Shown: piece by piece, positions 24,529 to 40,678 of the stretch | Numbering within the stretch: the stretch's first letter is position 1 | How the letters are laid out: each line of letters opens with the position of its first letter | Origin: Dokdonella sp. | GTDB taxonomy: Bacteria > Pseudomonadota > Gammaproteobacteria > Xanthomonadales > Rhodanobacteraceae | Direction of reading: 5' to 3' | DNA: 64,000 nt | Assembly (NCBI RefSeq): GCF_035703485.1 | Contig: NZ_DASSYD010000207.1 | Coordinates: forward strand, 8,126 to 72,125 | The notes under the pieces: model-generated | The model's input: only the letters and a program-made list of their open reading frames with translations | The model's database searches: none | Told to the model about the DNA's origin: nothing | Program-made: the position numbers and the translations under genes

Positions 24529-25341
24529 GTGCCCGAACTGCCCGAAGTTGAAACAACGCGCCGCGGAATCGAACCTTATTTGCTCGAGCAGCGAATTTCA
24601 CGACTCGTCATTCGCCAGCCGCAATTGCGCTGGCCGATCCCGCAAACGCTGATTGCCGCCCTGCCCGGCAAGCGCATCGAATCGATCGAGCGTCGGGCCA
24701 AGTACCTGCTCGTCAATACGCCGGTTGGCAGCGCGCTCCTGCACCTGGGCATGTCAGGCAGCCTGCGCGTGCTTGATCCGCAAACGCCGCCGGGCAAGCA
24801 CGATCACTACGACTGGTTGCTCGATTCGGGGCGCATGTTGCGCTTCACCGATCCACGCCGCTTCGGCAGCCTGCTCTGGCAACCGCTGGGCAGCACCCAC
24901 GATCTGCTCGCGCGCCTGGGACCCGAACCGCTCGGTGAGCGCTTTGATGGCGACTATCTGTGGCGGCTTTCACGCGGGCGCTCGGCCTCGGTCAAGACTT
25001 TCATCATGGATCAGGCCATTGTCGTCGGCGTCGGCAACATCTACGCCGCCGAAGCGCTATTCGCGGCCGGCATCCATCCACGGCGCAAGGCCGGATCGGT
25101 GTCACGAAATCGCTATGCAAACCTCGCCGAGGCAATCAAGCGGATCCTCAGCTACGCGATCGAACGCGGCGGCACGACCCTGCGCGACTTCATCTCACCG
25201 GACGGCGTTCCCGGCTATTTCGAGCAGGAATTGTTTGTCTATGGCCGCGCAGGCGAGCCGTGTCGCAACTGCGGAGCACCCGTGCGGTCGATCACGCTGG
25301 GGCAGCGTTCGACGTTTTATTGCCCTCGGTGTCAGAGGTGA
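24529..25341 (+). CDS. mutM: Formamidopyrimidine-DNA glycosylase
   Basis: [14 protein letters not shown]-terminus (GTG start) and a C-terminal zinc finger CRNCGAPV...FYCPRCQ. Confidence 0.95.
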
Positions 25342-25342
25342 A

Positions 25343-25540
25343 GGGGAGTGGGGAGTGGGGAGTGGGGAGTGGGGAGTGGGGAGTGGGAAATAGGAAAAGC
25401 CGCTCGCGGTATGCGATATCGTCGCAATTGATTCCATCTTCGGCGAGATCTTGAAAATGCGCTGGTGGGTCGAATGAGGTTGAACTCGTCACGCATTGCT
25501 TTCCTATTTCCCACTCCCCACTCCCCACTCCCCACTCCCA
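25343..25540. repeat. Heptamer inverted-repeat element filling the whole mutM/tdk convergent intergenic region
   Basis: The left arm is (GGGGAGT)x6 + gggaaataggaaaagc. The right arm is gctttcctatttccc + (ACTCCCC)x4. About 95 nt of unrelated sequence lies between the arms. Confidence 0.9.
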
Positions 25541-25541
25541 T

Positions 25542-26162
25542 TCAAAGCGGTAAGACGGATTGCTGCAACTCGATGCGGCCTTCGCCGGCGACGATTTTCT
25601 TGAACTCGGCGCGACTGACCGAGACGTAGCGTTCATTGCCGCCGATCTCGACCTGCGGGCCGTCGGTCAGCGCGCGGCCGTGTTCGTCGACGCGCACGAC
25701 CATCGTTGCCTTGCGCCCGGTGTGGCAGATTGTCTTGATCTCGTCGAGCTTGTCGGCCCAGGCCAGCAGGTACTGGCTGCCCTCGAACAGTTCGCCGCGG
25801 AAATCCGTGCGCAGACCATAAGCCAGAACCGGAATACCACGCTTGTCGGCGACATCGGTCAATTGCCAGACCTGGGCCTTGCTCAGGAACTGTGCTTCGT
25901 CGACCAAGACGCAATCAAGCTTGCCGTTGGCGGCGATATCGGCATCGATCAAGGCGAGCAGATCGTCATCACGATCAAAACGCAGGCCGGCGGCCTTGAG
26001 CCCGATACGCGAAGCAACCACGCCCTCACCGGCGCGATTGTCCAGCTTTGGCGTCATGATCCGCGTGCGCATGCCGCGCTCATGATAGTTGTACGCGCTC
26101 TGCAGCAGCGTCGTCGTCTTGCCGGCATTCATGGCTGAGTAGTAGAAATAGAGTTTGGACAT
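25542..26162 (-). CDS. tdk: Thymidine kinase
   Basis: [26 protein letters not shown]... with VDEAQFL. Confidence 0.95.
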
Positions 26163-26170
26163 TTACGAGC

Positions 26171-26552
26171 GGGAGTGGGGAGTGGGGAGTGGGGAGTGGG
26201 GATTTGGCAAGTCAAGAGCCCTTAAGGCAACGCTGATCAAGTGGCGCAATCGTCACGACACCTGTCTGCGTGCAGACAGGTGTCGCCTAACCGATTGATT
26301 TTATTGAAACAGGTGGCATCCAGAAGGTCCGCCAGTCGTGCTGCGCGGCTCGTCAAGGCAACCAGCCTTCACTTCGCCACGCAGCACGACTGGCGAACCT
26401 TCTGAAGGCCATGACGGTTGTGCCACTTGATCAGCGTTGCCTTAATTGTGCCCGTGTGCGGCGATTGCGTCATGTAATGGGTGGCTGGACCGGTCGTCTA
26501 TGCGAAAATCCCGCGCTGTTGCCTGCCTACTCCCTACTCCCCACTCCCGCTC
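26171..26552. repeat. Split heptamer-hairpin element (G-rich arm 26171-26201, C-rich arm 26527-26552) with a MITE-like element lodged between the arms
   Basis: gggagtggggagtggggagtggggagtgggga ... ctactccctactccccactcccgctcc. It lies in the divergent region between tdk and rep. Confidence 0.7.
26223..26444 (+). mobile_element. MITE-like non-autonomous element, copy 1 (222 bp, 22-bp terminal inverted repeats, no ORF)
   Basis: The ends are aaggcaacgctgatcaagtggc ... gccacttgatcagcgttgcctt. Internal long hairpins are gacacctgtctgc/gcagacaggtgtc and cagaaggtccgccagtcgtgctgcg/cgcagcacgactggcgaaccttctg. It is nearly identical to 33565-33850. Confidence 0.75.
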
Positions 26553-26557
26553 CAACC

Positions 26558-29715: not shown

Positions 29716-30633
29716 ATGTCCCGACTCATCCCCTTTTCCCTGCTCGCAAGCCTTCTGCTCAGTGCCTGCAGCGCACCGACAACCCGCCCGGATTCAACGA
29801 GCGCCAGTCAGCCGGGCTCGCAACCCGCCGCGGCCGCATCAGTCCAATCAACGCCGGCACCGAACGACAACCTCAACGCGGTCGCGTGGACGCAAACGGC
29901 GGTCGAGCGCGATCTGATCTATCGACAGACCTACCGCATGGCTGCTGACGAACTGGATGCAGCGCTGGCCGATCCAACCTGGGAAGCGCTGCCGAAAGGA
30001 GAGCGGAAAACGCCCGTGGCCGACCCGACCCGGACCGCGGTCATTCTCGATATCGACGAAACCGTGCTCGACAACTCACCCTATCAGGCGCGTCTTGTCA
30101 TCAATGGCACCAGTTTCAACAAGGACACCTGGGCCGAATGGTGCCGCGAGATAAACGCCGCGGCGATTCCCGGAGCACTCGAATTTACCCGACTGGCCGC
30201 GAGCAAGGGCGTCACCGTGTTCTATCTGTCGAACCGGCCCAATGACCTTGAAGACGTGACTTTGGCCAACTTGCGCAAACTCGATTTTCCGATTGCGGAC
30301 AACGAGCAGGTTTTTCTCGGCAAGGGCATGACGGTCTCCGGTTGCGTCGAGAAAGGCAGCGCCAAAAGCTGCCGCCGCGAGCTGATTTCGCGCAAATACC
30401 GGGTGTTGCTGCAGATCGGCGACCAGCTCGGCGATCTTGTTGATGAAGGGGAAAACACGCCGCAGGCGCGTGCCCAGGCGATTGCGCCCTATCTCGACTG
30501 GATCGGCCAGCGCTGGTTCGTGCTGCCGAACCCGACCTACGGGCACTGGGAGCCAGCACTGTTCAACAACGACTGGAGCCAGCCCGAAGCCGAGCGCCGA
30601 CGTGCCAAAGAGGCCTCATTGCGCTTGAATTAG
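29716..30633 (+). CDS. Lipoprotein e(P4)-family 5'-nucleotidase / class C acid phosphatase (HAD IIIB)
   Basis: Lipobox LLLSAC, HAD motif I AVILDIDETVLDNSPYQA, and a late GDQLGD motif. Confidence 0.85.
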   Translation: MSRLIPFSLLASLLLSACSAPTTRPDSTSASQPGSQPAAAASVQSTPAPNDNLNAVAWTQTAVERDLIYRQTYRMAADELDAALADPTWEALPKGERKTPVADPTRTAVILDIDETVLDNSPYQARLVINGTSFNKDTWAEWCREINAAAIPGALEFTRLAASKGVTVFYLSNRPNDLEDVTLANLRKLDFPIADNEQVFLGKGMTVSGCVEKGSAKSCRRELISRKYRVLLQIGDQLGDLVDEGENTPQARAQAIAPYLDWIGQRWFVLPNPTYGHWEPALFNNDWSQPEAERRRAKEASLRLN

Positions 30634-30971
30634 AAATATTTTTCCTTTCAATATCAACATGATATCTGATGCAAGTTAAGGCATTGCATTAACCTTGTTC
30701 ACTGGTTACCATGCGCATGCCGTCTTCCTCGTGTTGCCCCACTCGGAAAGCGCTTCATCAACGCACAGAACGACGTATCAGTTCCCCCTCCGGCGATGCC
30801 GGATTCGACCCGGATGGTATCCATCCGGGTTTTCTTTTGCGCAGAATCCAGGCTGGTCAGGACTATTCATGAATGATCCGGGCCAGGGCCCGTAAACAGT
30901 GTGAAGTCGATTGAGCATTTCCTTCTCCCGCCAACGGGAGGAGCACCGAGTTGATACATTTTGGGGCCGGA

Positions 30972-32078
30972 TCAGAAATACGGGATCGGTGGCGGCATTC
31001 CGTCGACCGATACGCCCCGGCGACCGAGTTCGGCGCGCGCCTGGCCTGCCGAGTCTCCGCCGGCAAGCATTTCAGCACGCAGTGCGAGCAGATCGAATCC
31101 GACCTCTCGCGCCCGTGTCGCAACGCGGGCAAGTGCAGACTCCTTGCCGGAGTTGCGCACCGAGGCTCGCAACAGATCGACACGCAGGGTCAGCAAGGCA
31201 TCGGGATTGCTGCCAAGCTCGCTCTCCAACTCGTCGAGCAGACGCTCGGCCTGCTCGATGTGGCTCTGGGCCGACAACACACCGGCCAGAAGCACACCCG
31301 CCTGCAATCCGGCGTGCGGATCGTTCGCCTTGAGCATGGCCCGGCGCAGCTCGCGAGCGGATTGTTCGGCGGCGCCGAGATGGCCCCGGCGCGCCGCCAG
31401 TTCGGCCAGATCAAGCTCGCTCATGCGCGCCCATTCGTCGAGACCGGCCTGCTCGCGCAATTGTTTCGCCAGTCGAAATCCGGTATCTGCAGACTCGTTC
31501 GCGCCGCGCAATGCCGCTTCACGGGCGCGCGCCGTCTCGATAGCGGCACGCCGCGAGGCCGGCACTTGTTCATTGAGCTCGGAAAGCAGGCTCCCCGCGC
31601 CGTCCAGATCGGCGCGAAGCAGCAACAATTCACCAAGACTGGCGACGACCTGCAGCCGATTGTCCTCGGCACCAATGGCAGCCCGGACTCGATTTCCTGT
31701 GCAGGCATCGCATCGACAATGCCAGCTGTCGATGCGGTTTCATCCAACACCTGCGGCTGGACGAGAAAACGGTAGCCGAGCTTGTGCTTGGTTTCGATAT
31801 AGGGCAACGCTGATCAAGTGGCCCTAGGTCGAATTGCGTGCGGAATCGCCGAGCGCCTGGCGCAGCTCGCGGATCGATTGAGAAACCACACCTACACTGA
31901 CCGCCTGACGTCCCCAGACATTGTCGAGCAGTTCCTCGTGTCCGATCAGGCGCTGCGGATTTTCAAGCAAATGGCGAAGCACCTGCACCGTGATCGGGCG
32001 CAGCGCAATTTCGCCCTCCGCGCCACTGAGGCGCGCGTTGTGCGCATCGAAACTGAATTGATCGAATTGGTAATGCAT
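30972..32078 (-). pseudogene. Disrupted winged-helix (OmpR/CadC-type) + TPR-like transcriptional regulator
   Basis: Three minus-strand frames each carry part of one protein. 32078-31824 gives MHYQFDQFSFDAHNARLSGAEGEIALRPITVQVLRHLLENP...IRELRQALGDSARNST*. 31807 onward gives PYIETKHKLGYRFLVQPQV (the rest of the wHTH wing). A third frame gives AAIGAEDNRLQVVASLGELLLLRADLDGAGSLL... down to 30972. One junction coincides with a MITE-end footprint. Confidence 0.6.
31801..31823 (+). repeat. Solo MITE terminal-repeat footprint inside the regulator pseudogene
   Basis: agggcaacgctgatcaagtggcc compared with the element end aaggcaacgctgatcaagtggcg (21/23 identical). Confidence 0.65.
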
Positions 32079-32192
32079 GACTGGAGTCTACCCGGCATTT
32101 GCGGCACTACCACTCTGAATAATGACCGGCATACTGGAAGCAGACTGGGCGCGATAGAATGCATCAGCCACATACAACGGAGCCGCTTGCGG

Positions 32193-32858
32193 ATGTTGAC
32201 CCTTCCTGACCAGCCACTACTCGACAAGATCGCCCTGATTGGCGGTTGTGCGCGACTTGATTTCGGTTTCGATGCCGAGCGTGCGCTTTCCGAGATCACG
32301 GCACTGCCGGATTCCAGTTGGGGCAGTCGTGCCGGTCGAGTCGGCGTTCACGACCCGGCCCAGGCGATCTTTCTGCGTGGTCATGCGCCGGCCCAGGGTG
32401 ATCTACCTGTCGAGGATCGCGACGAACTTGCGCAGCTTCCATATCTGCGTGAGTTGATCAAAGAGGTAATTCCCGCGCCAGCGCTTCGTTGCGTGCTGGC
32501 CCAGTTGTCGGCGGGCGGAATCATCGCACCGCATATTGATCAGGGTGAGTATTTCAGCAAGACCATCCGCCTGCACTTTCCGATCACCACCAACGAAAAT
32601 GTCTGGATGAACTGTGCCGGGCTTAGCTACCAGATGCATTCTGGTGAGATCTGGGCACTCAATAACAGCATTGGTCACGGCGTGATCAATGCTGATGCGA
32701 GCCGCGCGCGCTTGCACATGATCTGTGATTTTCTGAGCAGCGCGGAGCTGGTGGAGATACTTGCGCGCGCTGATCGAGGCCTTGGCAGGCCCAATCCTGC
32801 GATCAAGGCCCGCCTGATCGAAGCACAGCACCAGGCCCAGCAAGCTGGCAAGCTGTGA
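32193..32858 (+). CDS. Aspartyl/asparaginyl beta-hydroxylase-family 2OG/Fe(II) oxygenase (LpxO/ASPH-type cupin), 221 aa
   Basis: Start trimmed to MLTLPDQPLLDKI, because the upstream part of the track ORF overlaps the wHTH on the other strand. HxD in IIAPHIDQGEY, distal His in NSIGHGVIN, and the cupin core IRLHFPITTNENVWMNCAG...GEIWALNN. Confidence 0.75.
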   Translation: MLTLPDQPLLDKIALIGGCARLDFGFDAERALSEITALPDSSWGSRAGRVGVHDPAQAIFLRGHAPAQGDLPVEDRDELAQLPYLRELIKEVIPAPALRCVLAQLSAGGIIAPHIDQGEYFSKTIRLHFPITTNENVWMNCAGLSYQMHSGEIWALNNSIGHGVINADASRARLHMICDFLSSAELVEILARADRGLGRPNPAIKARLIEAQHQAQQAGKL

Positions 32859-33550
32859 TCATCACCGACAAACTCGTCTATGTGCACCTGCACAAGTCGG
32901 GCGGCACGTTTGTCAACGAATGCCTGATGCGCTTCATTCCTGGCGCAAGAATGCTCGGATATCACCTGCCGAGCAGCATGATTCCGGACAATCTCGGTCA
33001 CCTTCCGCTGCTCGGTTTCGTGCGCAGCCCCTGGAGTTACTACGTGTCCTGGTATGCGTTCCAGTCACAGATGACATACCCGAATGTACTGTTTCGCGTT
33101 GTCAGCAAAGACCGGGCACTGGATTTCCATGGGACGCTGCGCAATCTGCTTGACCTTGGCAGCGACAACGACATGCTCGACAAACTCGTTGCGTTGCTGC
33201 CAAAGACTTACGGCAACCAGGGCTTGAATCTGCCCGGCTTCGCGCTGGAACCGATTCGTGGCAGTGGCAAAGGTCTGTACAGCTATCTCTACGGCTACAT
33301 GTACGGCGAAAGGGAAGCTGAGGCACTCGTGGGTCGCGTGGAAAATCTGCGCACCGACCTGCTTGGCTTTCTTGCCAGCATCGAGGGTGCGTTGTCACCG
33401 CCACTGCGCACATTCATCGAGCAGGCGGAAGCACGAAACACCTCGCGCCATGATGCGTTTCGCGATTACTACAACAAGGAAATGGCCGCGCTCGTTACCG
33501 AACGCGACCAGTCGGTCGTCGAAAAATTCGACTATCGTTTCGAAGACTGA
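32855..33550 (+). CDS. Sulfotransferase family protein (Sulfotransfer_2-like), 231 aa
   Basis: 5'-PSB-like loop VHLHKSGGTFV and 3'-PB-like FVRSPWSYYVSWY. GTG start overlaps the hydroxylase stop (GTGA). Confidence 0.7.
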   Translation: MIITDKLVYVHLHKSGGTFVNECLMRFIPGARMLGYHLPSSMIPDNLGHLPLLGFVRSPWSYYVSWYAFQSQMTYPNVLFRVVSKDRALDFHGTLRNLLDLGSDNDMLDKLVALLPKTYGNQGLNLPGFALEPIRGSGKGLYSYLYGYMYGEREAEALVGRVENLRTDLLGFLASIEGALSPPLRTFIEQAEARNTSRHDAFRDYYNKEMAALVTERDQSVVEKFDYRFED

Positions 33551-33564
33551 GGTCGAGCCAGGTC

Positions 33565-33850
33565 AAGGCAACGCTGATCAAGTGGCGCAATCGTCACGAC
33601 ACCTGTCTGCGTGCAGATCGCGGCGCGCTGACGCAGATGGACTGGCCGTCCTTCAAGCCAGCGCAACAAGGAGCTGCGCGCAGACAGGTGTCGCCTAACC
33701 GATTGGTTTTGTTGAAACAGGTGACACTCAGAAGACCCACCAACCGCACCGCGCGTCTGGTCAAGGCAACCTGCCTTCACTTCGCCACGCAGCACGGCCG
33801 GTGCGCTTTCTGAATGCCATGACGGTTGGGCCACTTGATCAGCGTTGCTT
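33565..33850 (+). mobile_element. MITE-like element, copy 2 (286 bp; same orientation as copy 1, with an extra internal block of about 60 bp)
   Basis: Same ends as copy 1: aaggcaacgctgatcaagtggc ... gccacttgatcagcgttgc-tt. The internal segments align with 26223-26444 by eye. Confidence 0.75.
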
Positions 33851-33858
33851 AAGACGCA

Positions 33859-34452
33859 CTATTTTTTGGCCTTTGCTTTTGGACGCTTTTCCGGCTTCGC
33901 CGGCTCACCTTTTCGACCAAGCTCTTCAAGCAGGCTGCTCATGTCTTCGGCATGCTCTTCCTCGACTTCGAGAATCTCCTCCATGAGCCGCCGAGTGGTT
34001 GTATCGGCGCTGCCCAGATAGTCGACGATTTCCCGATAGCTGTCGATGGCGATGCGCTCGGCGACGAGATTTTCCTTGATCATGTCGACCAGATCGTCAC
34101 CTTCGACGTAATCGGAGTGGCTGCGTGTGAGCAAGCCTTCTGGCGAAAGGTTTGGCGCGCCACCCAGCTGGGTAATCCGCTCGGCAATGCGATCAGCGTG
34201 GCTCTGCTCCTCGTTGGCGTGCGCGAGAAACTCGGCAGCGACGCTTTGCGCGTTGATGCCCGATGCCATGTAGTAGTGATACTTGTACCGAAGAACACAA
34301 ACGATCTCGGTCGCGAGTGCCTCATTGAGAACCCGAATGACCGTTTCGCGATCGGCGTCGTAGCCAGCGGTGACGGCGCCACGCTCGATATGTTCGCGGG
34401 CCCGCTTGCGGATATTCTTGATGTCGGAGACGAAGGGTTTGCGTATGGCCAT
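33859..34452 (-). CDS. Ferritin-like (bacterioferritin/Dps-like) protein with a lysine-rich C-terminal tail
   Basis: Start trimmed to MAIRKPFVSD (AAGGAG RBS). Di-iron-type motifs are LNEALATEIVCVLRYKYHY, HANEEQSHADRIAERI, ERIAIDSYRE and EEILEVEEEHAEDM. The tail is GRKGEPAKPEKRPKAKAKK. Confidence 0.8.
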   Translation of the reverse strand: MAIRKPFVSDIKNIRKRAREHIERGAVTAGYDADRETVIRVLNEALATEIVCVLRYKYHYYMASGINAQSVAAEFLAHANEEQSHADRIAERITQLGGAPNLSPEGLLTRSHSDYVEGDDLVDMIKENLVAERIAIDSYREIVDYLGSADTTTRRLMEEILEVEEEHAEDMSSLLEELGRKGEPAKPEKRPKAKAKK

Positions 34453-34582
34453 GGGGACTGCTCCTTGAATCGCTGCGGATGGATCGCCGATCCGGGCGGA
34501 AATCATTCCGTTGCGGTTCTCGGCGGGAAGTCACCAGTCCATTGTGCTGAAACCCATGCATCCCCGGCTGAATGAGATTTCC

Positions 34583-36475
34583 TCAGCCGCTGAACACCAA
34601 CTCCGCACGCGCTCTGGTCGCCTCGATCAATGGCAGTACGGCCTCGATTTCTCGCTCGTGACGACGCCACTTCTCCGGTGCGGGTGCCGAAACCGTATGC
34701 TGCGAATGTGGAAGGTTGGCTCCGAGTTCTACATCCCAGCCGAGCCCCAGCTCACTGCACAAACGCCTGCATTCAGATTGTGGGTCGGCCAGGAAGCGGT
34801 CGTAGCGAACGGTGTGAATCCGCTCACTGGGCACGTTGGCCAACTCATCGAGCAACGTTCGGGTTGTTGTCTCCCATTGCCGCGCGACGATCTCGGGCAG
34901 CGGCCGGCCGATCAGCTCCCGCCAACCCGGCACCAGCAACAATGACCATGGCGTGCCGGTCCAGCCCGGAAGTCTCGGATAGGTGCGATATTTCCCCGAG
35001 TTCCAGGCCTCGATCATGCTGGAAAGCACTTCGCGTGGATCGCGATACAGATAGACGAAATGCGCCTCCGGAAAAACTTTGCGCAAAAATGGAATGCGCA
35101 ATGCATTCCTCGGGGTCTTTTCGAGCAGACGAATGCGTCCCGCTGGTGGACGTTTACCCTCTCGATCGTGCAACGCTGTATCGAAACGCCCACGTAGTCG
35201 AGCGACCACGTCCTGCGTTGCGGCAGCTGCGTCAAGTGCGTTCGAGGCGAATCCACGAGCCACAGGATGCAACTCGTTCATACCTTCGATTTGAACATGG
35301 CTTTCGCCACCGACGGTGTAGAGATCCGGTGCACGTAGCAGGGTTTCAAAAAGCAGAGTCGAGCCGGAACGAGGCGATGAAAGGATGATGACCGGTCGAT
35401 CAAAGCGCGAGTCAACATCAGAACCTGATTCGGAGGATTCGATGCGCGGGCCATTCGACGAAGGCGGAGACTTTGCCTGATCCGGTGCAGTCGCGAAAGC
35501 ATCGGGCCCTTTGTCGGCATTGGCCCCCAATTCGCGATTCACACGACCGATCAAGGCCCCTTCGAAGATCATCGCGCGGAACGCCGCGAAGAAGCGAAAG
35601 CTGTTCTTGAGCAGCAATCCATCGCTCAATCCATGCATTTCTATCGCGAATTCCTTGAGTACTGCATGGTACTCAGGCCAACCCTCTTCGCGGATGCCGT
35701 AACGCGCCCACAAGCCGAGCCAGACGCCATTGAATTGTGCACAGCGCGACTGCATCACAGCCATGTTTGGAGTGTGAGTCGCTTCGGAGAGCAGAAAGTT
35801 GAGAGTATCGCGAAGCTCCCACGGCGTAATTACGTCGCCTAGATTCTCCGACTCGTAGATTATTTCGACCTCTTTTTCTGGATCAAATGAAACCTGCTTC
35901 GGAGACCATCCTGGAGCAGCGTGTCCTTCTACGCGCCCCTGGTTGGTGTGCTCCCAGAAACGCTGGCTGCCAACCGTATCGGCAACCAGATGAATGCGTT
36001 GGGCAGGGTTCGCATTGATGACCCGATGCGCACGCCAGGTATCGAAGATCCAGCACTCGCCCTCGGCCATATTGACCTCGGCGTCGCCGCACTGGAAGCG
36101 TACCGTTGGCTGGGTCTGGATCGGCACATGCACGCGTACCCGTTCACGCCAGTAGTAGGCGAAGTCCGCATGTCGGGGAACCTCGGCGTGGCCCGACAGT
36201 CGCATCAGCCGACTGCGCCCCCATACAGCGCCAAGGCTGGCCAGCACCTGGCGCAAGTAAGGACAGGCATCCAGATGTGGCGTTGGCCGCATTGGCCCGG
36301 AAATCGAATCACTGGATGGATCGCCATTCACCGCGATCAAGGGCAAAGCCGAGTTGCCGGCATAACCCTGCGGATGCGGCCGCCATACGCTTTCACCGAG
36401 CTTCTCGATCTCGGCAAGCAATCGCGGCGCATCAAAACTCAGGGGCAATTGGACGAACGGAACTTGAAGTTTCAT
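34583..36475 (-). CDS. Fusion protein: N-terminal Asp/Asn beta-hydroxylase-family cupin + central unknown region + C-terminal sulfotransferase (Sulfotransfer_3-like), 630 aa
   Basis: N-terminus: ...LSGHAEVPRHADFAYYWRERVRVHVPIQTQPTVRFQCGDAEVNMAEGECWIFDTWRAHRVIN (HxD...H cupin). C-terminus: VIILSSPRSGSTLLFETL (5'-PSB), YLYRDPREVLSSMIEAW (3'-PB). Start trimmed to MKLQVPFVQLP. Confidence 0.75.
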   Translation of the reverse strand: MKLQVPFVQLPLSFDAPRLLAEIEKLGESVWRPHPQGYAGNSALPLIAVNGDPSSDSISGPMRPTPHLDACPYLRQVLASLGAVWGRSRLMRLSGHAEVPRHADFAYYWRERVRVHVPIQTQPTVRFQCGDAEVNMAEGECWIFDTWRAHRVINANPAQRIHLVADTVGSQRFWEHTNQGRVEGHAAPGWSPKQVSFDPEKEVEIIYESENLGDVITPWELRDTLNFLLSEATHTPNMAVMQSRCAQFNGVWLGLWARYGIREEGWPEYHAVLKEFAIEMHGLSDGLLLKNSFRFFAAFRAMIFEGALIGRVNRELGANADKGPDAFATAPDQAKSPPSSNGPRIESSESGSDVDSRFDRPVIILSSPRSGSTLLFETLLRAPDLYTVGGESHVQIEGMNELHPVARGFASNALDAAAATQDVVARLRGRFDTALHDREGKRPPAGRIRLLEKTPRNALRIPFLRKVFPEAHFVYLYRDPREVLSSMIEAWNSGKYRTYPRLPGWTGTPWSLLLVPGWRELIGRPLPEIVARQWETTTRTLLDELANVPSERIHTVRYDRFLADPQSECRRLCSELGLGWDVELGANLPHSQHTVSAPAPEKWRRHEREIEAVLPLIEATRARAELVFSG

Positions 36476-36973
36476 GGGTCCATTATCGCACTTTAGGCAA
36501 GGCGGAACCAGAAACGTCGGGTCTGTTTCCACGCTCCCTAAGTACATCTTCTCGACTGTTCGCTGATTTGGCTCCTGTTGCGCTGAAACGTTGCAGGGCA
36601 GTAGCCAATTTGCGCCCGCGCCGCTCTTCCGATTGCCGGGTGGCTACTGGTTCCGCGAACAAGTTCGCCTAGACACTGAAGCCGGCAATGACATCCTTGC
36701 CGCAGCAATAGCCAAGATTGAGCCATCGAGCACCGCAACTCAAAAGAAGACTCGAACTCTGAGCCGCTGTGACTTTTTGTGTACCAACTCAAGCGACAAG
36801 TACATCAAGTTATTGGATGCGACGCCGAACCTCCACCTCATCTCTAAGCATAAACAGCAATCGTATATGTTTTTCAATACTACTAATAGTTGTGATTTCG
36901 ATCACATTTTTTATTCTAATACCCATACGATGCAAGTCAACATATTCGACAATATCTGTCTTGAAGGTTTGTC

Positions 36974-37900
36974 ATGATCATGAAACGTACTTCAGCATTT
37001 CTATTGATACTGATAGCACCCCTAGTTTTACTCGCAATTTTCAGCTTGAATTACATGCGTGGAAGCGATGTTGTTCCTGCAAAAATGCCAAACAATGTAC
37101 TTTTTAGTTCGGCAACTTCACGCGAGTTACTTACTCCCATAAACCCAAGGGCTAGCCATCACTTGAGGATGCCGACAGCCCAACGCTCGAACCATCAAAT
37201 CGTGGATGGCCTTCTGCAGCAATTCGAGAGTGGAGATGGCGAGGCGCTAGATGCCAAGCTCGTCGCAGCGCATTTTGCTGACATTCTTCGAAGGCTGAAG
37301 GACGGAGATCCCATTGCCGCACGCCTACTGCATCAAAGCTTGGCAACGTGTAAGGGATCTTACTCTCCCAAGGAACTCAACGATTTGCGCATTTCCGCGA
37401 GCTCGCGGAATGACGAAATAGCCTTGCGCTCCATTGCGGCGATCTCGGCCGCATGCTCACCATTCTCTGGCGAGCAGATCGCCGCGGATTGGGAAATTGT
37501 GAAAGCCGGCATTGATCTAGGGGACGATTCTCTTAAAGTTCAATATTATACGTTGGACCCTGGCGTTCCAAGCTTTGACTCGCGATACTCAAGGAGACTG
37601 GCCGAGTACAACGATGAAGCACTTGCCCACTTGAATCAGGCCGCGAGTGATGGGTTTCCAGACGCCTATTGGGCATTGGGCGACGCGTATATGGAAGGAA
37701 AGATTGTTCCGCGAGACTTCCTGCGCGCGTATGGGTATCAACTCGCGTGGCTCGAAAGCCAGAGAGCCACATTCCTTCCTTCCGAGTGGGAAGCATTCCA
37801 TTCGGCATTGGTAAGGGACTTCGGGACACGTCTGACGGCTGAGCAGCAGTTAGACGCACAGTTTCTGGCTAATCGTTTACTTTCTGGAGATAACTCATGA
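36974..37900 (+). CDS. Membrane-anchored hypothetical protein with at least one Sel1-like repeat
   Basis: N-terminal anchor MIMKRTSAFLLILIAPLVLLAIFSL. AASDGFPDAYWALGDAYMEGKIVPRDFLRAYGY resembles a Sel1/TPR-like repeat. The coding region is AT-rich relative to its neighbours. Confidence 0.45.
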   Translation: MIMKRTSAFLLILIAPLVLLAIFSLNYMRGSDVVPAKMPNNVLFSSATSRELLTPINPRASHHLRMPTAQRSNHQIVDGLLQQFESGDGEALDAKLVAAHFADILRRLKDGDPIAARLLHQSLATCKGSYSPKELNDLRISASSRNDEIALRSIAAISAACSPFSGEQIAADWEIVKAGIDLGDDSLKVQYYTLDPGVPSFDSRYSRRLAEYNDEALAHLNQAASDGFPDAYWALGDAYMEGKIVPRDFLRAYGYQLAWLESQRATFLPSEWEAFHSALVRDFGTRLTAEQQLDAQFLANRLLSGDNS

Positions 37901-38217
37901 ACTTTCGCCTCATCGCCGTTACATTGTTCGGAATAGCCGTTTCAGGCGTGTGTAGCGCATCAAGCTTCGGCACCCAGTGTCAGTCTTGCACACCGTTCAA
38001 CTATTCGAGCGCTTCAGTTCAGCAAGCAGCAGTACTACTGGCGAGCAGCAATAGTGCCGCCATTGGAGACACCCTGCAATTATGTAAAGATATTAACAAT
38101 GGGCGGTCACTCCTACTTTCGTATACTGTAAATTCCTCCCCCGTCACGAGTATCGCGAATCTTACTCACGGACCTCTTGGACAAATCATTCTCGATGTTT
38201 CCTGTGACGGCAACTAA
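37897..38217 (+). CDS. Small secreted hypothetical protein (106 aa, 5 Cys)
   Basis: Signal peptide MNFRLIAVTLFGIAVSGVCSA. The mature part is Ser/Cys-rich (SSFGTQCQSCTPFNYSS...LCKD...VSCDGN). ATGA overlap with the upstream gene suggests translational coupling. I recognise no family. Confidence 0.4.
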   Translation: MNFRLIAVTLFGIAVSGVCSASSFGTQCQSCTPFNYSSASVQQAAVLLASSNSAAIGDTLQLCKDINNGRSLLLSYTVNSSPVTSIANLTHGPLGQIILDVSCDGN

Positions 38218-38253
38218 ACTAGTATCGATCTTCGTCTTCTTCTAGCCTTGGTT

Positions 38254-38280
38254 AGCGGAATCCGCCAAGCGGATTCCGCT
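38254..38280. terminator. Perfect 12-bp stem-loop between convergent genes (no U-tract)
   Basis: agcggaatccgc-caa-gcggattccgct. Confidence 0.45.
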
Positions 38281-38356
38281 CTATCGTAGCGGCCCTCAAA
38301 TCTCGAATCAGACTCTGAGGTTTCACCACGAATTTCCGCTGGTAGACCGCGATTGT

Positions 38357-40574
<2,218 letters not shown>

Positions 40575-40678
40575 CCCGCATTGAATCATGTTCATTGCAG
40601 CCAAGCCAGCCAGACGCCACCTGGTTCAAGGCGAGGGTGCTCAGATGGCACAATGGTGGCTTGTCTCAAGGAACTGCC

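What the first reader, a model, noticed from the sequence alone, without database searches (positions are those of the whole stretch)
30634..38356. Accessory island with two hydroxylase + sulfotransferase pairings: a candidate hydroxylate-then-sulfate modification system of unknown substrate
The island lies between core genes (e(P4) phosphatase and thiC). It contains (i) a 221-aa Asp/Asn-beta-hydroxylase-family cupin (HxD...H) whose stop overlaps the start of a 231-aa sulfotransferase, and (ii) on the other strand, a 630-aa protein that fuses the same two activities. It also holds a ferritin-like protein, a degraded wHTH/TPR regulator divergent from pair (i), a MITE copy, and an AT-rich two-gene module. 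The family precedents are LpxO/OlsC (2-hydroxylation of lipid acyl chains) and ASPH (hydroxylation of Asp/Asn in Cys-rich secreted domains). Bacterial sulfotransferases act on lipids, glycans or peptides (NodH, Stf0, RaxST). Finding the pairing twice, once as a fusion, argues that the two chemistries act on one substrate, with C-hydroxylation creating the acceptor for O-sulfation. I know of no characterised bacterial system of this design. No PAPS-synthesis genes are in the window.
Basis: partly seen in the sequence, partly recalled or inferred. Interest (0 to 1): 0.85.

Follow-up and report, generated by a model that had tools for sequence, protein, structure and literature searches.

The report
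Conserved paired hydroxylase–sulfotransferase gene locus
A soil bacterium related to Dokdonella carries two different pairs of a hydroxylating and a sulfating enzyme, one pair fused into a single protein; the pairs travel together in many genomes and probably hydroxylate and then sulfate an unknown amino-acid-like molecule, but the locus is conserved rather than a mobile island, and the idea was already predicted in 2010.

Summary
All the described genes are present. The 630-aa protein fuses an Fe(II)/2-oxoglutarate hydroxylase to a TPST/CurM-type sulfotransferase. A 221-aa hydroxylase overlaps by 4 nt a 231-aa protein with no Pfam hit. Motifs, a predicted fold and Pfam-positive relatives make that protein a divergent sulfotransferase.

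The "accessory island" label fails. The fusion, the Dps-like ferritin and the split pair lie beside thiC across Rhodanobacteraceae. Only the AT-rich two-gene module, the MITE and the decay of the regulator are specific to this strain.

The pairing is robust. At least 562 species representatives encode a relative of the fusion, and all five long contigs reached from the pair carry the fusion alongside. The 231-aa family also occurs fused to a hydroxylase, once with TPR repeats and a second sulfotransferase. Fuller clusters add TPR-sulfotransferases, a TPR-AspH, a prolyl-hydroxylase-like gene and TonB-dependent receptors.

Among solved structures, the nearest sequence relatives of both hydroxylases are free-proline hydroxylases, not ASPH. 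LpxO/OlsC could not be compared directly, but the proteins lack their membrane anchor.

The likeliest function is cytoplasmic hydroxylation followed by PAPS-dependent O-sulfation of an amino-acid-like or small peptide substrate that is not encoded here. Iyer et al. predicted this design in 2010. I found no experimental work.

The parts
29716..30633 (+). e(P4)-family lipoprotein acid phosphatase. Left flank, not part of the system.
   Evidence: PF03767 E 4e-41; TIGR01533 E 1e-60. Absent beside the cluster in all related loci.
30978..32078 (-). Pseudogene of a CadC/OmpR-type winged-helix plus TPR regulator, divergent from the split pair. Residues 1-84 map to 31827-32078 and residues 641-875 to 30978-31676. 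About 500 residues have been deleted.
   Evidence: tblastn against the intact 875-aa Dokdonella immobilis regulator; PF00486 E 5e-11 on the 84-aa fragment. An intact copy is present in 5 Dokdonella-type loci.
31803..31823 (-). Solo MITE terminal-repeat-like sequence (GGCCACTTGATCAGCGTTGCC) directly after the premature TAG of the regulator.
   Evidence: Read. It matches the TIR of the MITE copies found.
32193..32858 (+). 221-aa soluble Fe(II)/2OG hydroxylase (PF05118 cupin), the first gene of the split pair.
   Evidence: PF05118, 46 bits. Invariant H114, D116, H162, R173. Best solved relative is L-proline cis-4-hydroxylase 4p7w, E 6e-11. No transmembrane segment.
32855..33550 (+). 231-aa divergent sulfotransferase-like protein with no Pfam hit, the second gene of the split pair. 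It is translationally coupled to the hydroxylase through a GTGA overlap.
   Evidence: Invariant K14 (HKSGGT), H37 (YHLP), R57 and S65 (VRSPWSYYVS). The profile aligns these with the catalytic His and 3'-PB of SULT1C2 (E 0.047). AF2 model pLDDT 92. The top 50 Foldseek hits are all sulfotransferases, but at E 0.05-1.2. 43 of 150 family representatives hit PF00685.
33565..33848 (.). MITE copy inserted between the split pair and the ferritin gene.
   Evidence: 34-nt TIRs and a second copy at 26222-26445. The same intergenic gap is about 40 bp in D. immobilis.
33859..34506 (-). Dps-like ferritin (probable true start at 34452). A conserved downstream neighbour of the fusion, probably functionally independent.
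   Evidence: PF00210 E 3e-28; PDB 8w1d E 4e-70. Downstream of the fusion in 34 of 66 loci with enough flank.
34583..36475 (-). 630-aa fusion protein. The N-terminal part is a free-proline-hydroxylase-like Fe/2OG cupin with a helical domain (1-312). A disordered linker follows (313-352), then a C-terminal TPST/CurM-type PAPS sulfotransferase (about 355-630).
   Evidence: Pfam. Invariant H102, D104, H150, R160, plus PRSGST, E391, K453, R478, S486. AF2 pLDDT 88.7. Profile and Foldseek hits to 4p7w, 1e5r, Cpz10, TPST1/2 and CurM ST.
36913..36940 (-). Sigma-70-like promoter match upstream of the fusion, inside the AT-rich insertion.
   Evidence: TTGACT-16-TAGAAT, 10 of 12. The number of such matches in the region is not above chance.
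36974..38217 (+). AT-rich two-gene insertion. One gene encodes a 308-aa protein with a signal or transmembrane segment and a weak Sel1 repeat. The other encodes a 106-aa Cys-containing secreted protein. The insertion separates thiC from the fusion.
   Evidence: GC 0.49-0.51, GC3 0.50-0.52. No homologue in 94 related loci or in plasmids. In 23 related genomes thiC and the fusion are less than 60 bp apart.
38357..40228 (-). thiC, the conserved upstream neighbour of the fusion.
   Evidence: 94-95% identical to Dokdonella thiC genes annotated PF01964.
40495..40576 (-). TPP-riboswitch-like leader of thiC.
   Evidence: RF00059, 32.9 bits, below the gathering score of 54.3; E 1e-4 in the local search.

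Best explanation
The region is a conserved chromosomal locus of Rhodanobacteraceae, here in a Dokdonella-like organism. It encodes two non-orthologous couples of a soluble Fe(II)/2-oxoglutarate hydroxylase and a PAPS-dependent sulfotransferase.

Couple 1 is a single 630-aa polypeptide. It joins a free-proline-hydroxylase-like cupin with a helical domain, through a flexible linker, to a TPST/CurM-type sulfotransferase. Couple 2 is a translationally coupled two-gene operon. It encodes a 221-aa hydroxylase and a 231-aa member of a sulfotransferase family that Pfam does not recognise.

The most likely mechanism is as follows. In the cytoplasm, each hydroxylase installs a hydroxyl on an unactivated carbon of an amino-acid-like or short peptidyl substrate. 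Its partner sulfotransferase then converts that hydroxyl into a sulfate ester, using PAPS made elsewhere in the genome. The two couples act on the same molecule or pathway.

The window holds a reduced version of a larger recurrent cluster. That cluster also encodes TPR-sulfotransferases, a TPR-AspH, a prolyl-hydroxylase-like oxygenase and TonB-dependent receptors. In this strain the dedicated regulator has decayed, and an AT-rich insertion has cut the fusion off from thiC.

What is shown: the domains, the catalytic residues, the conservation, the co-localisation and the independent fusions. What is inferred: the order of the reactions, the use of PAPS and the class of substrate.
For: Domains and catalytic residues
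- Pfam hits are well above the cut-offs.
- The HxD...H triad and the 2OG-binding Arg are invariant in 88 fusion homologues and 21 homologues of the split hydroxylase.
- The TPST catalytic set aligns with the fusion, including 5'-PSB PRSGST and 3'-PB RDPxxxxSS.
- In the 231-aa family K14, H37, R57 and S65 are invariant.

Coupling
- At least 562 species representatives encode a relative of the fusion, and all 120 best database hits share its fused architecture.
- The split pair lies beside the fusion in 17 of 66 loci reached from the fusion.
- It lies beside the fusion in all five long contigs reached from the pair.
- The two split genes have near-equal family sizes, 1310 and 1274.
- They overlap by 4 nt in 13 of 17 loci.
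- The 231-aa family also occurs fused to a hydroxylase of the split type (P0409: probabilities 100% and 98.8%).
- It occurs once as sulfotransferase-AspH-TPR-Sulfotransfer_3 in a single 1025-aa protein.

Cellular location
- None of the enzymes has a signal peptide or transmembrane segment.

Substrate class
- The best solved sequence relatives of both hydroxylases are free L-proline hydroxylases and the small-molecule hydroxylase Cpz10 (PMC9814697).
- TPR-fused paralogues sit in the extended clusters.

Prior prediction
- Iyer et al. 2010 predicted the same logic.
Against: - No substrate gene, peptide precursor or PAPS-synthesis gene lies in the locus.
- No experiment on any family member was found.
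- The sulfotransferase assignment of the 231-aa protein is indirect. Foldseek E-values are 0.05-1.2 with TM-scores of 0.35-0.55. There is no profile similarity to the fusion's sulfotransferase domain.
- The nearest-structure argument for a free amino acid is weak evidence of substrate. It also pulls against the TPR evidence, which points to peptides.
- Tight thiC-fusion spacing in 23 genomes is unexplained.
- The orientation between the two domains of the fusion model is unreliable (pTM 0.57).
Confidence: 0.6

Rival explanations
1. The enzymes modify a ribosomal peptide or protein, but the two chemistries are independent. The TPST-like domains sulfate tyrosine, as RaxST and TPST do. The cupins hydroxylate Asp, Asn or Pro elsewhere on the same peptide.
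For: The fusion's sulfotransferase domain matches TPST1/2 at E 3e-11 and retains all TPST catalytic residues. Extended clusters carry TPR-sulfotransferase, TPR-AspH and PF13640 prolyl-hydroxylase-like genes. Lasso-peptide clusters in Pontixanthobacter list a sulfotransferase and an aspartyl beta-hydroxylase together. CanE hydroxylates a lasso precursor.
Against: No precursor peptide, protease or exporter is conserved in the locus. The same domain matches CurM ST, which sulfates an aliphatic hydroxyl, slightly better (E 4e-12). The window proteins have no TPR domain. Repeated one-to-one fusions of hydroxylase and sulfotransferase are more simply explained by consecutive steps.
Confidence: 0.17
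2. The sulfate is not the end product but a leaving group. Hydroxylation followed by sulfation activates the carbon for elimination, cyclisation or substitution, as in CurM/Ols olefin formation. The final metabolite would then carry no sulfate.
For: CurM ST and Ols ST are the best and fifth-best sequence matches of the fusion's sulfotransferase domain. LGS1, which performs sulfation-assisted ring closure, is among the fold hits of the 231-aa model.
Against: No thioesterase or other eliminating partner is conserved nearby. The extended clusters hold up to five sulfotransferase domains, which fits multiple stable sulfations better.
Confidence: 0.1
3. One reading: LpxO/OlsC-like 2-hydroxylation of a lipid A or ornithine-lipid acyl chain, followed by sulfation as an envelope modification.
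For: The Pfam family PF05118 is shared with LpxO and OlsC (own knowledge). A GT-C/PMT_2 glycosyltransferase and DUF2333 lie beside the pair in some MAGs.
Against: All three proteins lack any hydrophobic segment (maximum 19-residue hydropathy 1.0-1.4), whereas LpxO is membrane-anchored. The nearest solved relatives act on free amino acids or a nucleoside-peptide. No acyltransferase or lipid genes are conserved with the pair.
Confidence: 0.05
4. The whole 7.7-kb region is a recently acquired accessory island, as the title claims.
For: GC3 of the enzyme genes (0.63-0.69) is below that of the flanking core genes (0.73-0.83). The region also holds a MITE, a decayed regulator and an AT-rich module.
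Against: The thiC-fusion-ferritin-pair synteny is shared with Dokdonella, Rhodanobacter, Dyella, Rudaea and other genera at 52-82% protein identity. Only the AT-rich module has no counterpart elsewhere.
Confidence: 0.05

Closest known systems
[quoted passage not shown]
   Same: They are the best solved sequence relatives of both hydroxylases (E 1.4e-9 and 6.4e-11) and the top Foldseek hits of the fusion model. They share the HxD...H triad and the 2OG-binding Arg in register. In the fusion, a C-terminal helical region follows the jelly roll.
   Different: Identity is only about 16-19%. The substrate-binding residues were not verified. The known enzymes are stand-alone and have no sulfotransferase partner.
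Human aspartate/asparagine beta-hydroxylase (ASPH)
   Same: It shares the Pfam family (PF05118) and the fold (Foldseek E 1e-6).
   Different: ASPH does not reach E<=1 against the fusion-domain profile and scores E 1.8 against the split-enzyme profile. It has a TPR domain and a two-His iron site without the carboxylate (own knowledge). The window proteins have HxD and no TPR. TPR-AspH genes that match PF05118 over its full length occur only in the extended clusters of other genomes.
Tyrosylprotein sulfotransferases (TPST1/2; bacterial RaxST) and CurM/Ols sulfotransferase domains
   Same: The fusion's C-terminal domain is PF13469. It aligns with TPST1 (E 3e-11) and CurM ST (E 4e-12), conserving 5'-PSB, 3'-PB and the catalytic Glu and Lys.
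   Different: It is fused to a hydroxylase rather than to a PKS module or a Golgi anchor. The acceptor is unknown. No RaxX-like precursor or RaxAB exporter lies nearby.
Predicted beta-hydroxylase plus sulfotransferase peptide-modification operons of Iyer, Abhiman, de Souza and Aravind 2010 (PMC2938197)
   Same: They share the concept: a 2OG dioxygenase of the amino-acid beta-hydroxylase family, fused or linked to a P-loop sulfotransferase, with hydroxylation followed by sulfation. That paper also notes TonB-type receptors in related neighbourhoods.
   Different: Those operons also encode PhyH-methyltransferase fusions, PAPS synthetases, and collagen-like or tail-collar candidate substrates. 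None of these is present here. The 231-aa sulfotransferase family and the thiC-linked locus are not mentioned in the passages I read.
Cpz10 (PDB 7V4F), caprazamycin beta-hydroxylase
   Same: It is a small PF05118-type cupin and the best structural superposition with the fusion's cupin (TM 0.76 over the target). It acts on a small aminoacyl-nucleoside (PMC9814697).
   Different: It belongs to an actinomycete antibiotic cluster. Identity is only 22%, and it has no sulfotransferase partner of this kind.
LpxO / OlsC lipid 2-hydroxylases
   Same: They share the Pfam family label.
   Different: They are membrane-anchored enzymes acting on acyl chains (own knowledge). The window proteins are soluble, and no lipid genes are linked to them.

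Membership tests
Fe(II)/2OG oxygenases of Pfam PF05118 (Asp_Arg_Hydrox) | Profile match above the curated cut-off | tested here: met
   46.1 bits (221-aa protein) and 52.0 bits (fusion) against a cut-off of 22.6.
Fe(II)/2OG oxygenases of Pfam PF05118 (Asp_Arg_Hydrox) | HxD/E...H iron triad and a 2OG-binding Arg, conserved | tested here: met
   H102/D104/H150/R160 are invariant in 88 sequences. H114/D116/H162/R173 are invariant in 21. They align with the triad of 4p7w.
Fe(II)/2OG oxygenases of Pfam PF05118 (Asp_Arg_Hydrox) | Double-stranded beta-helix fold | tested here: met
   The fusion AF2 model (pLDDT 88.7) matches 4p7w, 1e5r, 7v4f and 5apa at E 1e-10 to 1e-6. The split enzyme was not modelled, but it matches the fusion domain by hhalign at 99.5% probability.
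ASPH-type EGF-domain Asp/Asn beta-hydroxylase | TPR substrate-binding domain next to the oxygenase, and close sequence relationship | tested here: not met
   No TPR hit in either window protein. Human ASPH does not reach E<=1 for the fusion domain and scores E 1.8 for the split enzyme in profile searches.
LpxO/OlsC lipid hydroxylases | Membrane anchoring | tested here: not met
   Maximum 19-residue Kyte-Doolittle hydropathy is 1.0-1.4 in all three proteins.
Free amino-acid (proline) hydroxylases P3H / cis-P4H | Closest characterised homologues | tested here: met
   4p7w at E 1.4e-9 and 6.4e-11; 1e5r at E 7.6e-6 and 2.3e-7.
Free amino-acid (proline) hydroxylases P3H / cis-P4H | Residues that bind the free alpha-amino and alpha-carboxylate groups; activity on a free amino acid | not testable with these tools
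   The structural paper (Koketsu 2015) is not held. An enzyme assay is needed.
PAPS sulfotransferases, Sulfotransfer_3 (TPST/CurM ST type): fusion C-terminal domain | Profile match, 5'-PSB and 3'-PB motifs, catalytic base | tested here: met
   PF13469, 100 bits. PRSGST, RDPxxxxSS, E391 and K453 align with TPST1 catalytic residues. Foldseek matches to TPST and CurM ST at about E 1e-7.
PAPS sulfotransferases (SULT-like): 231-aa protein | Direct profile match to a curated sulfotransferase family | tested here: not met
   No Pfam or NCBIfam hit at E<=10. There is no hhalign similarity to the fusion's sulfotransferase domain.
PAPS sulfotransferases (SULT-like): 231-aa protein | 5'-PSB Lys, catalytic His, 3'-PB Arg and Ser; sulfotransferase fold; transitive homology | tested here: met
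   Invariant K14, H37, R57 and S65 align with SULT1C2 His and 3'-PB (E 0.047). All top 50 Foldseek hits are sulfotransferases, at weak E-values of 0.05-1.2. Of the 150 closest representatives, 43 hit PF00685 and 7 hit PF03567 at E<=0.01. P0409 passes the PF00685 cut-off (25.7 against 22).
Iyer-Aravind predicted hydroxylase-sulfotransferase peptide-modification operons | Beta-hydroxylase-family dioxygenase fused or linked to a sulfotransferase | tested here: met
   the paper's text.
Iyer-Aravind predicted hydroxylase-sulfotransferase peptide-modification operons | Co-encoded PAPS synthetase, PhyH-methyltransferase, and a collagen-like or tail-collar substrate | tested here: not met
   None is present in the window or in the related loci inspected. 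A plain methyltransferase occurs in one cluster type.

The most novel reading that the evidence does not exclude
The fusion, the split pair and their TPR-bearing relatives form an uncharacterised cytoplasmic pathway, widespread in soil Gammaproteobacteria. It would make a multiply hydroxylated and O-sulfated amino-acid- or peptide-derived molecule, recognised or recycled through dedicated TonB-dependent receptors. That would be a new class of sulfated bacterial metabolite or signal. It would also define a new sulfotransferase family (the 231-aa type; 3783 representative clusters at E<=1e-3) whose acceptor is a hydroxyl freshly installed on an aliphatic carbon.
Probability: 0.35. Interest if true: 0.75.

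Novelty: new variant of a known kind. Interest (0 to 1): 0.55.

Why it matters
Few bacterial sulfotransferases have a known acceptor. No enzyme is known to pair a dedicated C-H hydroxylase with a sulfotransferase in one polypeptide. This locus offers three compact, soluble and readily expressed proteins for testing a prediction that has stood for 16 years.

It also assigns a fold and probable chemistry to a large family now annotated as "hypothetical". And it points to a larger gene cluster, linked to TonB-dependent receptors, whose product is unknown. Finding the product would add a new sulfated metabolite or peptide modification to bacterial biochemistry. It could also explain the many TPR-sulfotransferase genes in Xanthomonadales and related soil bacteria.

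Tried and rejected
- Metagenome scan. I substituted contig look-ups from the pair side.
- De novo neighbour clustering. A crude longest-ORF gene caller picked antisense ORFs in this high-GC DNA. I used tblastn presence/absence tables instead.
- Origin of the window. A look-up of the window's own fusion protein found nothing on record.
- Literature. Searches for the fusion, for TPR-sulfotransferase/TonB clusters and for Rhodanobacter sulfotransferases found no experimental work.
- L066 neighbours. The 229-aa and 208-aa ORFs beside the fusion paralogue in L066 are not related to the 231-aa family.
- Split pair as a broken fusion. Rejected: the hydroxylases are only 28% identical, and the sulfotransferases are unrelated at profile level.
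- thiamine link. thiC and the fusion are less than 60 bp apart in 23 genomes, but I found no biochemical rationale. The paralogous clusters are not near thiC, so I treat this as inherited synteny or co-transcription and leave it unexplained.
- Ferritin as a pathway member. It is an orthologue-level match to a structurally solved Dps-like protein and is absent from many loci that have the pair. It is probably independent.
- Free-proline binding residues. The structural paper is not held.
- AT-rich module. It has no plasmid homologue.

Full report
**What is in the sequence.**

The window has GC 0.594. Its thiC is 94-95% identical, and its pepQ 75-85% identical, to Dokdonella genes. The source is therefore a Dokdonella-like member of the Rhodanobacteraceae.

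Between the e(P4) phosphatase (29716-30633) and thiC (38357-40228, minus strand) lie these features:
- the remains of a winged-helix/TPR regulator (30978-32078, minus strand)
- a 221-aa PF05118 hydroxylase (32193-32858, plus strand)
- a 231-aa ORF (32855-33550, plus strand) whose GTG start overlaps the hydroxylase stop by 4 nt
- a 284-nt MITE (33565-33848)
- a Dps-like ferritin (33859-34506, minus strand)
- a 630-aa PF05118 plus PF13469 fusion (34583-36475, minus strand)
- an AT-rich two-gene module (36974-38217, plus strand)

**The domains.**

The fusion matches Asp_Arg_Hydrox (52 bits) and Sulfotransfer_3 (100 bits). In 88 homologues the residues H102-x-D104, H150 and R160 are invariant. So are the sulfotransferase motifs PRSGST (5'-PSB) and R478/S486 (3'-PB), and K453; E391 is nearly invariant. 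These align with the catalytic residues of TPST1.

An AlphaFold model (pLDDT 88.7) shows three parts: a cupin plus a helical domain (1-312), a disordered linker (313-352) and a sulfotransferase domain. Foldseek matches L-proline cis-4-hydroxylase, proline 3-hydroxylase, Cpz10, TPST1/2, CurM ST and, less strongly, human ASPH.

The 221-aa protein has invariant H114-x-D116, H162 and R173. It is homologous to the fusion's cupin at 28% identity (hhalign probability 99.5%).

The 231-aa protein has no Pfam or NCBIfam hit at all. The evidence that it is a sulfotransferase is indirect:
- Its family has invariant K14 in HKSGGT, H37 in YHLP, and R57/S65 in VRSPWSYYVS.
- A family profile aligns these residues with the catalytic His and 3'-PB of SULT1C2, SULT1A3 and SULT4A1, but weakly (E 0.05-0.3).
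- A confident model (pLDDT 92) finds only sulfotransferases among its top 50 PDB matches, again weakly (E 0.05-1.2, TM 0.35-0.55).
- An exhaustive profile search found 3783 representative clusters at E<=1e-3. Of the 150 closest, 43 hit PF00685 and 7 hit PF03567 at E<=0.01. One of them, P0409, passes the PF00685 cut-off.

I accept it as a divergent sulfotransferase. It shows no profile similarity to the fusion's sulfotransferase domain.

**Not an accessory island.**

The order pepQ, thiC, fusion, ferritin, then the convergent pair and the regulator recurs in Dokdonella immobilis and in several MAGs. Rhodanobacter, Dyella and others keep thiC, fusion and ferritin without the pair.

Counts over 80 species-representative loci:
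- thiC lies upstream in 32 of 63 loci with enough flank. In 23 loci overall the gap is under 60 bp.
- The ferritin lies downstream in 34 of 66.
- The pair is present in 17 of 66.

Nothing resembling the AT-rich module or the e(P4) gene lies beside the cluster elsewhere. The thiC-fusion junction also carries other insertions in other genomes: a PRiA4_ORF3 gene in D. immobilis and a 265-aa ORF in L092.

The regulator has lost about 500 internal residues. Its premature stop abuts a solo MITE terminal repeat. GC3 of the enzyme genes (0.63-0.69) is somewhat below that of the core neighbours (0.73-0.83), while the inserted module is at 0.50-0.52. So the strain-specific features are the insertion, the MITE and the regulator decay. 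The enzyme genes are inherited.

**How robust is the pairing.**

- All 120 best database relatives of the fusion share the fused architecture, and at least 562 species representatives encode a relative.
- Starting from the pair instead, all five long contigs examined carry the fusion directly alongside (L088, L092, L093, L095, L097).
- At least 24 of about 60 relatives of the 231-aa protein on contigs of 4 kb or more share their longest-contig length with a listed fusion relative (my comparison).
- The two split families are nearly equal in size, 1310 and 1274. Their 4-nt overlap is kept in 13 of 17 loci.
- The 231-aa family itself occurs fused to a hydroxylase of the split type, in the opposite domain order (P0409, P0386, P0398, P0443, P0383). 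Once it occurs as 231-type sulfotransferase, AspH, TPR and Sulfotransfer_3 in a single 1025-aa protein (P0412).

Independent fusions of both kinds of couple are strong evidence that hydroxylase and sulfotransferase act in one pathway.

**The wider system.**

Three unrelated contigs share a seven-gene cluster. It comprises a TonB-dependent receptor, a TPR-sulfotransferase, a PF13640 prolyl-hydroxylase-like gene, a TPR-AspH, the fusion, the hydroxylase and the 231-aa sulfotransferase.

Second copies of the fusion in Rhodanobacter, Dyella and Steroidobacteraceae sit in receptor-led clusters with up to four TPR-sulfotransferases and a TPR-AspH. None of these extra genes is in the 64-kb window, so the window holds a reduced core.

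None of the enzymes has a signal peptide or a hydrophobic segment. The chemistry is therefore cytoplasmic, as PAPS and 2OG require.

**Substrate.**

The substrate remains unknown. No precursor peptide or PAPS-synthesis gene is present in the locus.

Two lines of evidence pull in different directions. Among solved structures, the nearest sequence relatives of both hydroxylases act on free L-proline or on a small aminoacyl-nucleoside. ASPH is not detectable by sequence. Against that, the TPR domains on paralogues, and the membership of TPST in the same sulfotransferase family, suggest peptides.

I therefore commit only to an amino-acid-like or short peptidyl substrate. The lipid precedent (LpxO/OlsC) is unlikely for soluble proteins with no lipid genes nearby.

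**Mechanism and rivals.**

- Best explanation (0.6): sequential C-hydroxylation and PAPS-dependent O-sulfation in the cytoplasm by two couples acting in one pathway.
- Rival (0.17): independent hydroxylation and Tyr-sulfation of one peptide.
- Rival (0.10): sulfate as a CurM-like leaving group.
- Rival (0.05): lipid modification.
- The "accessory island" claim is refuted for the enzyme genes.

**Novelty.**

Iyer, Abhiman, de Souza and Aravind (2010, PMC2938197) reported three relevant things. This type of sulfotransferase is fused or linked to 2OG dioxygenases in several bacteria. Beta-hydroxylase-family enzymes cluster with sulfotransferases. The hydroxyl is then sulfated. So the concept is not new.

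From my own knowledge, hydroxylation followed by sulfation also occurs as a tailoring step in some antibiotic pathways.

These points appear to be new:
- the specific fused family remains experimentally untouched
- the 231-aa proteins are recognised as a large sulfotransferase family that Pfam misses
- that family is obligately associated with the fusion
- the reciprocal fusions exist
- the seven-gene receptor-linked cluster recurs

I class the finding as a new variant of a known kind, of moderate interest (0.55). It is a clean and testable lead for enzyme discovery rather than a surprise.

Noticed in passing
window 25337-25546 and 26157-26555: Arrays of the heptamer GGGGAGT and its complement stand in inverted orientation. 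One pair has 40-nt arms, 100% complementary and 102 nt apart. A second pair brackets the other MITE copy (26222-26445).
   Followed up: no
window 40495-40576 (-): The TPP-riboswitch-like leader of thiC scores 32.9 bits, well below the Rfam gathering score of 54.3, and the whole-window scan at gathering threshold missed it. The core motifs CUGAGA and ACCUGAU are present, but model positions 38-48 (a stem in the consensus structure) have no counterpart in the sequence.
   Followed up: partly
window 36476-38356; L001 9281-9907; L092 11627-12424: The thiC-fusion junction is an insertion hot spot. Different unrelated genes sit there in different genomes, while 23 genomes have a gap under 60 bp. That spacing implies co-transcription of the fusion with riboswitch-controlled thiC. 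No functional link to thiamine is apparent.
   Followed up: partly
L088 3798-4106; L095 9742-10068: A small lipoprotein of 102 or 108 aa occurs in two independent extended clusters, once between the hydroxylase and the 231-aa sulfotransferase. It has a conserved AGY[KR]IV..NG..LYC....KTGS.......C core and a PPQG[SN] C-terminus. It could be a substrate or a receptor partner. It is absent from the window.
   Followed up: partly
window 31803-31823: A 21-nt solo copy of the MITE terminal repeat sits directly after the premature stop of the regulator pseudogene. This suggests that MITE activity caused the internal deletion.
   Followed up: partly
window 36974-38217: The AT-rich module encodes a 308-aa protein with a hydrophobic N-terminus and a weak Sel1 repeat, and an overlapping 106-aa Cys-containing secreted protein. 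It has no homologue in related loci or in the plasmid collection, and its function is unknown.
   Followed up: partly
L005 14471-17421; L092 5514-8214; L093 5308-8073: A DUF2333 gene and a PMT_2 (GT-C) glycosyltransferase lie divergently beside the split pair in several MAGs, followed by an inorganic pyrophosphatase. This is probably synteny, but it recurs.
   Followed up: no
L017 and L018 (about 1.5-1.8 kb beyond the 231-aa homologue): Extra C-terminal fragments of the 231-aa gene appear 1.5-1.8 kb downstream of the full-length copy. This suggests a duplication or an insertion there.
   Followed up: no
window 26411-26557: The long ORF of the UvrD/Rep-like helicase starts inside a MITE copy (MTVVPLDQRCLN...). 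The true start is probably further downstream.
   Followed up: no
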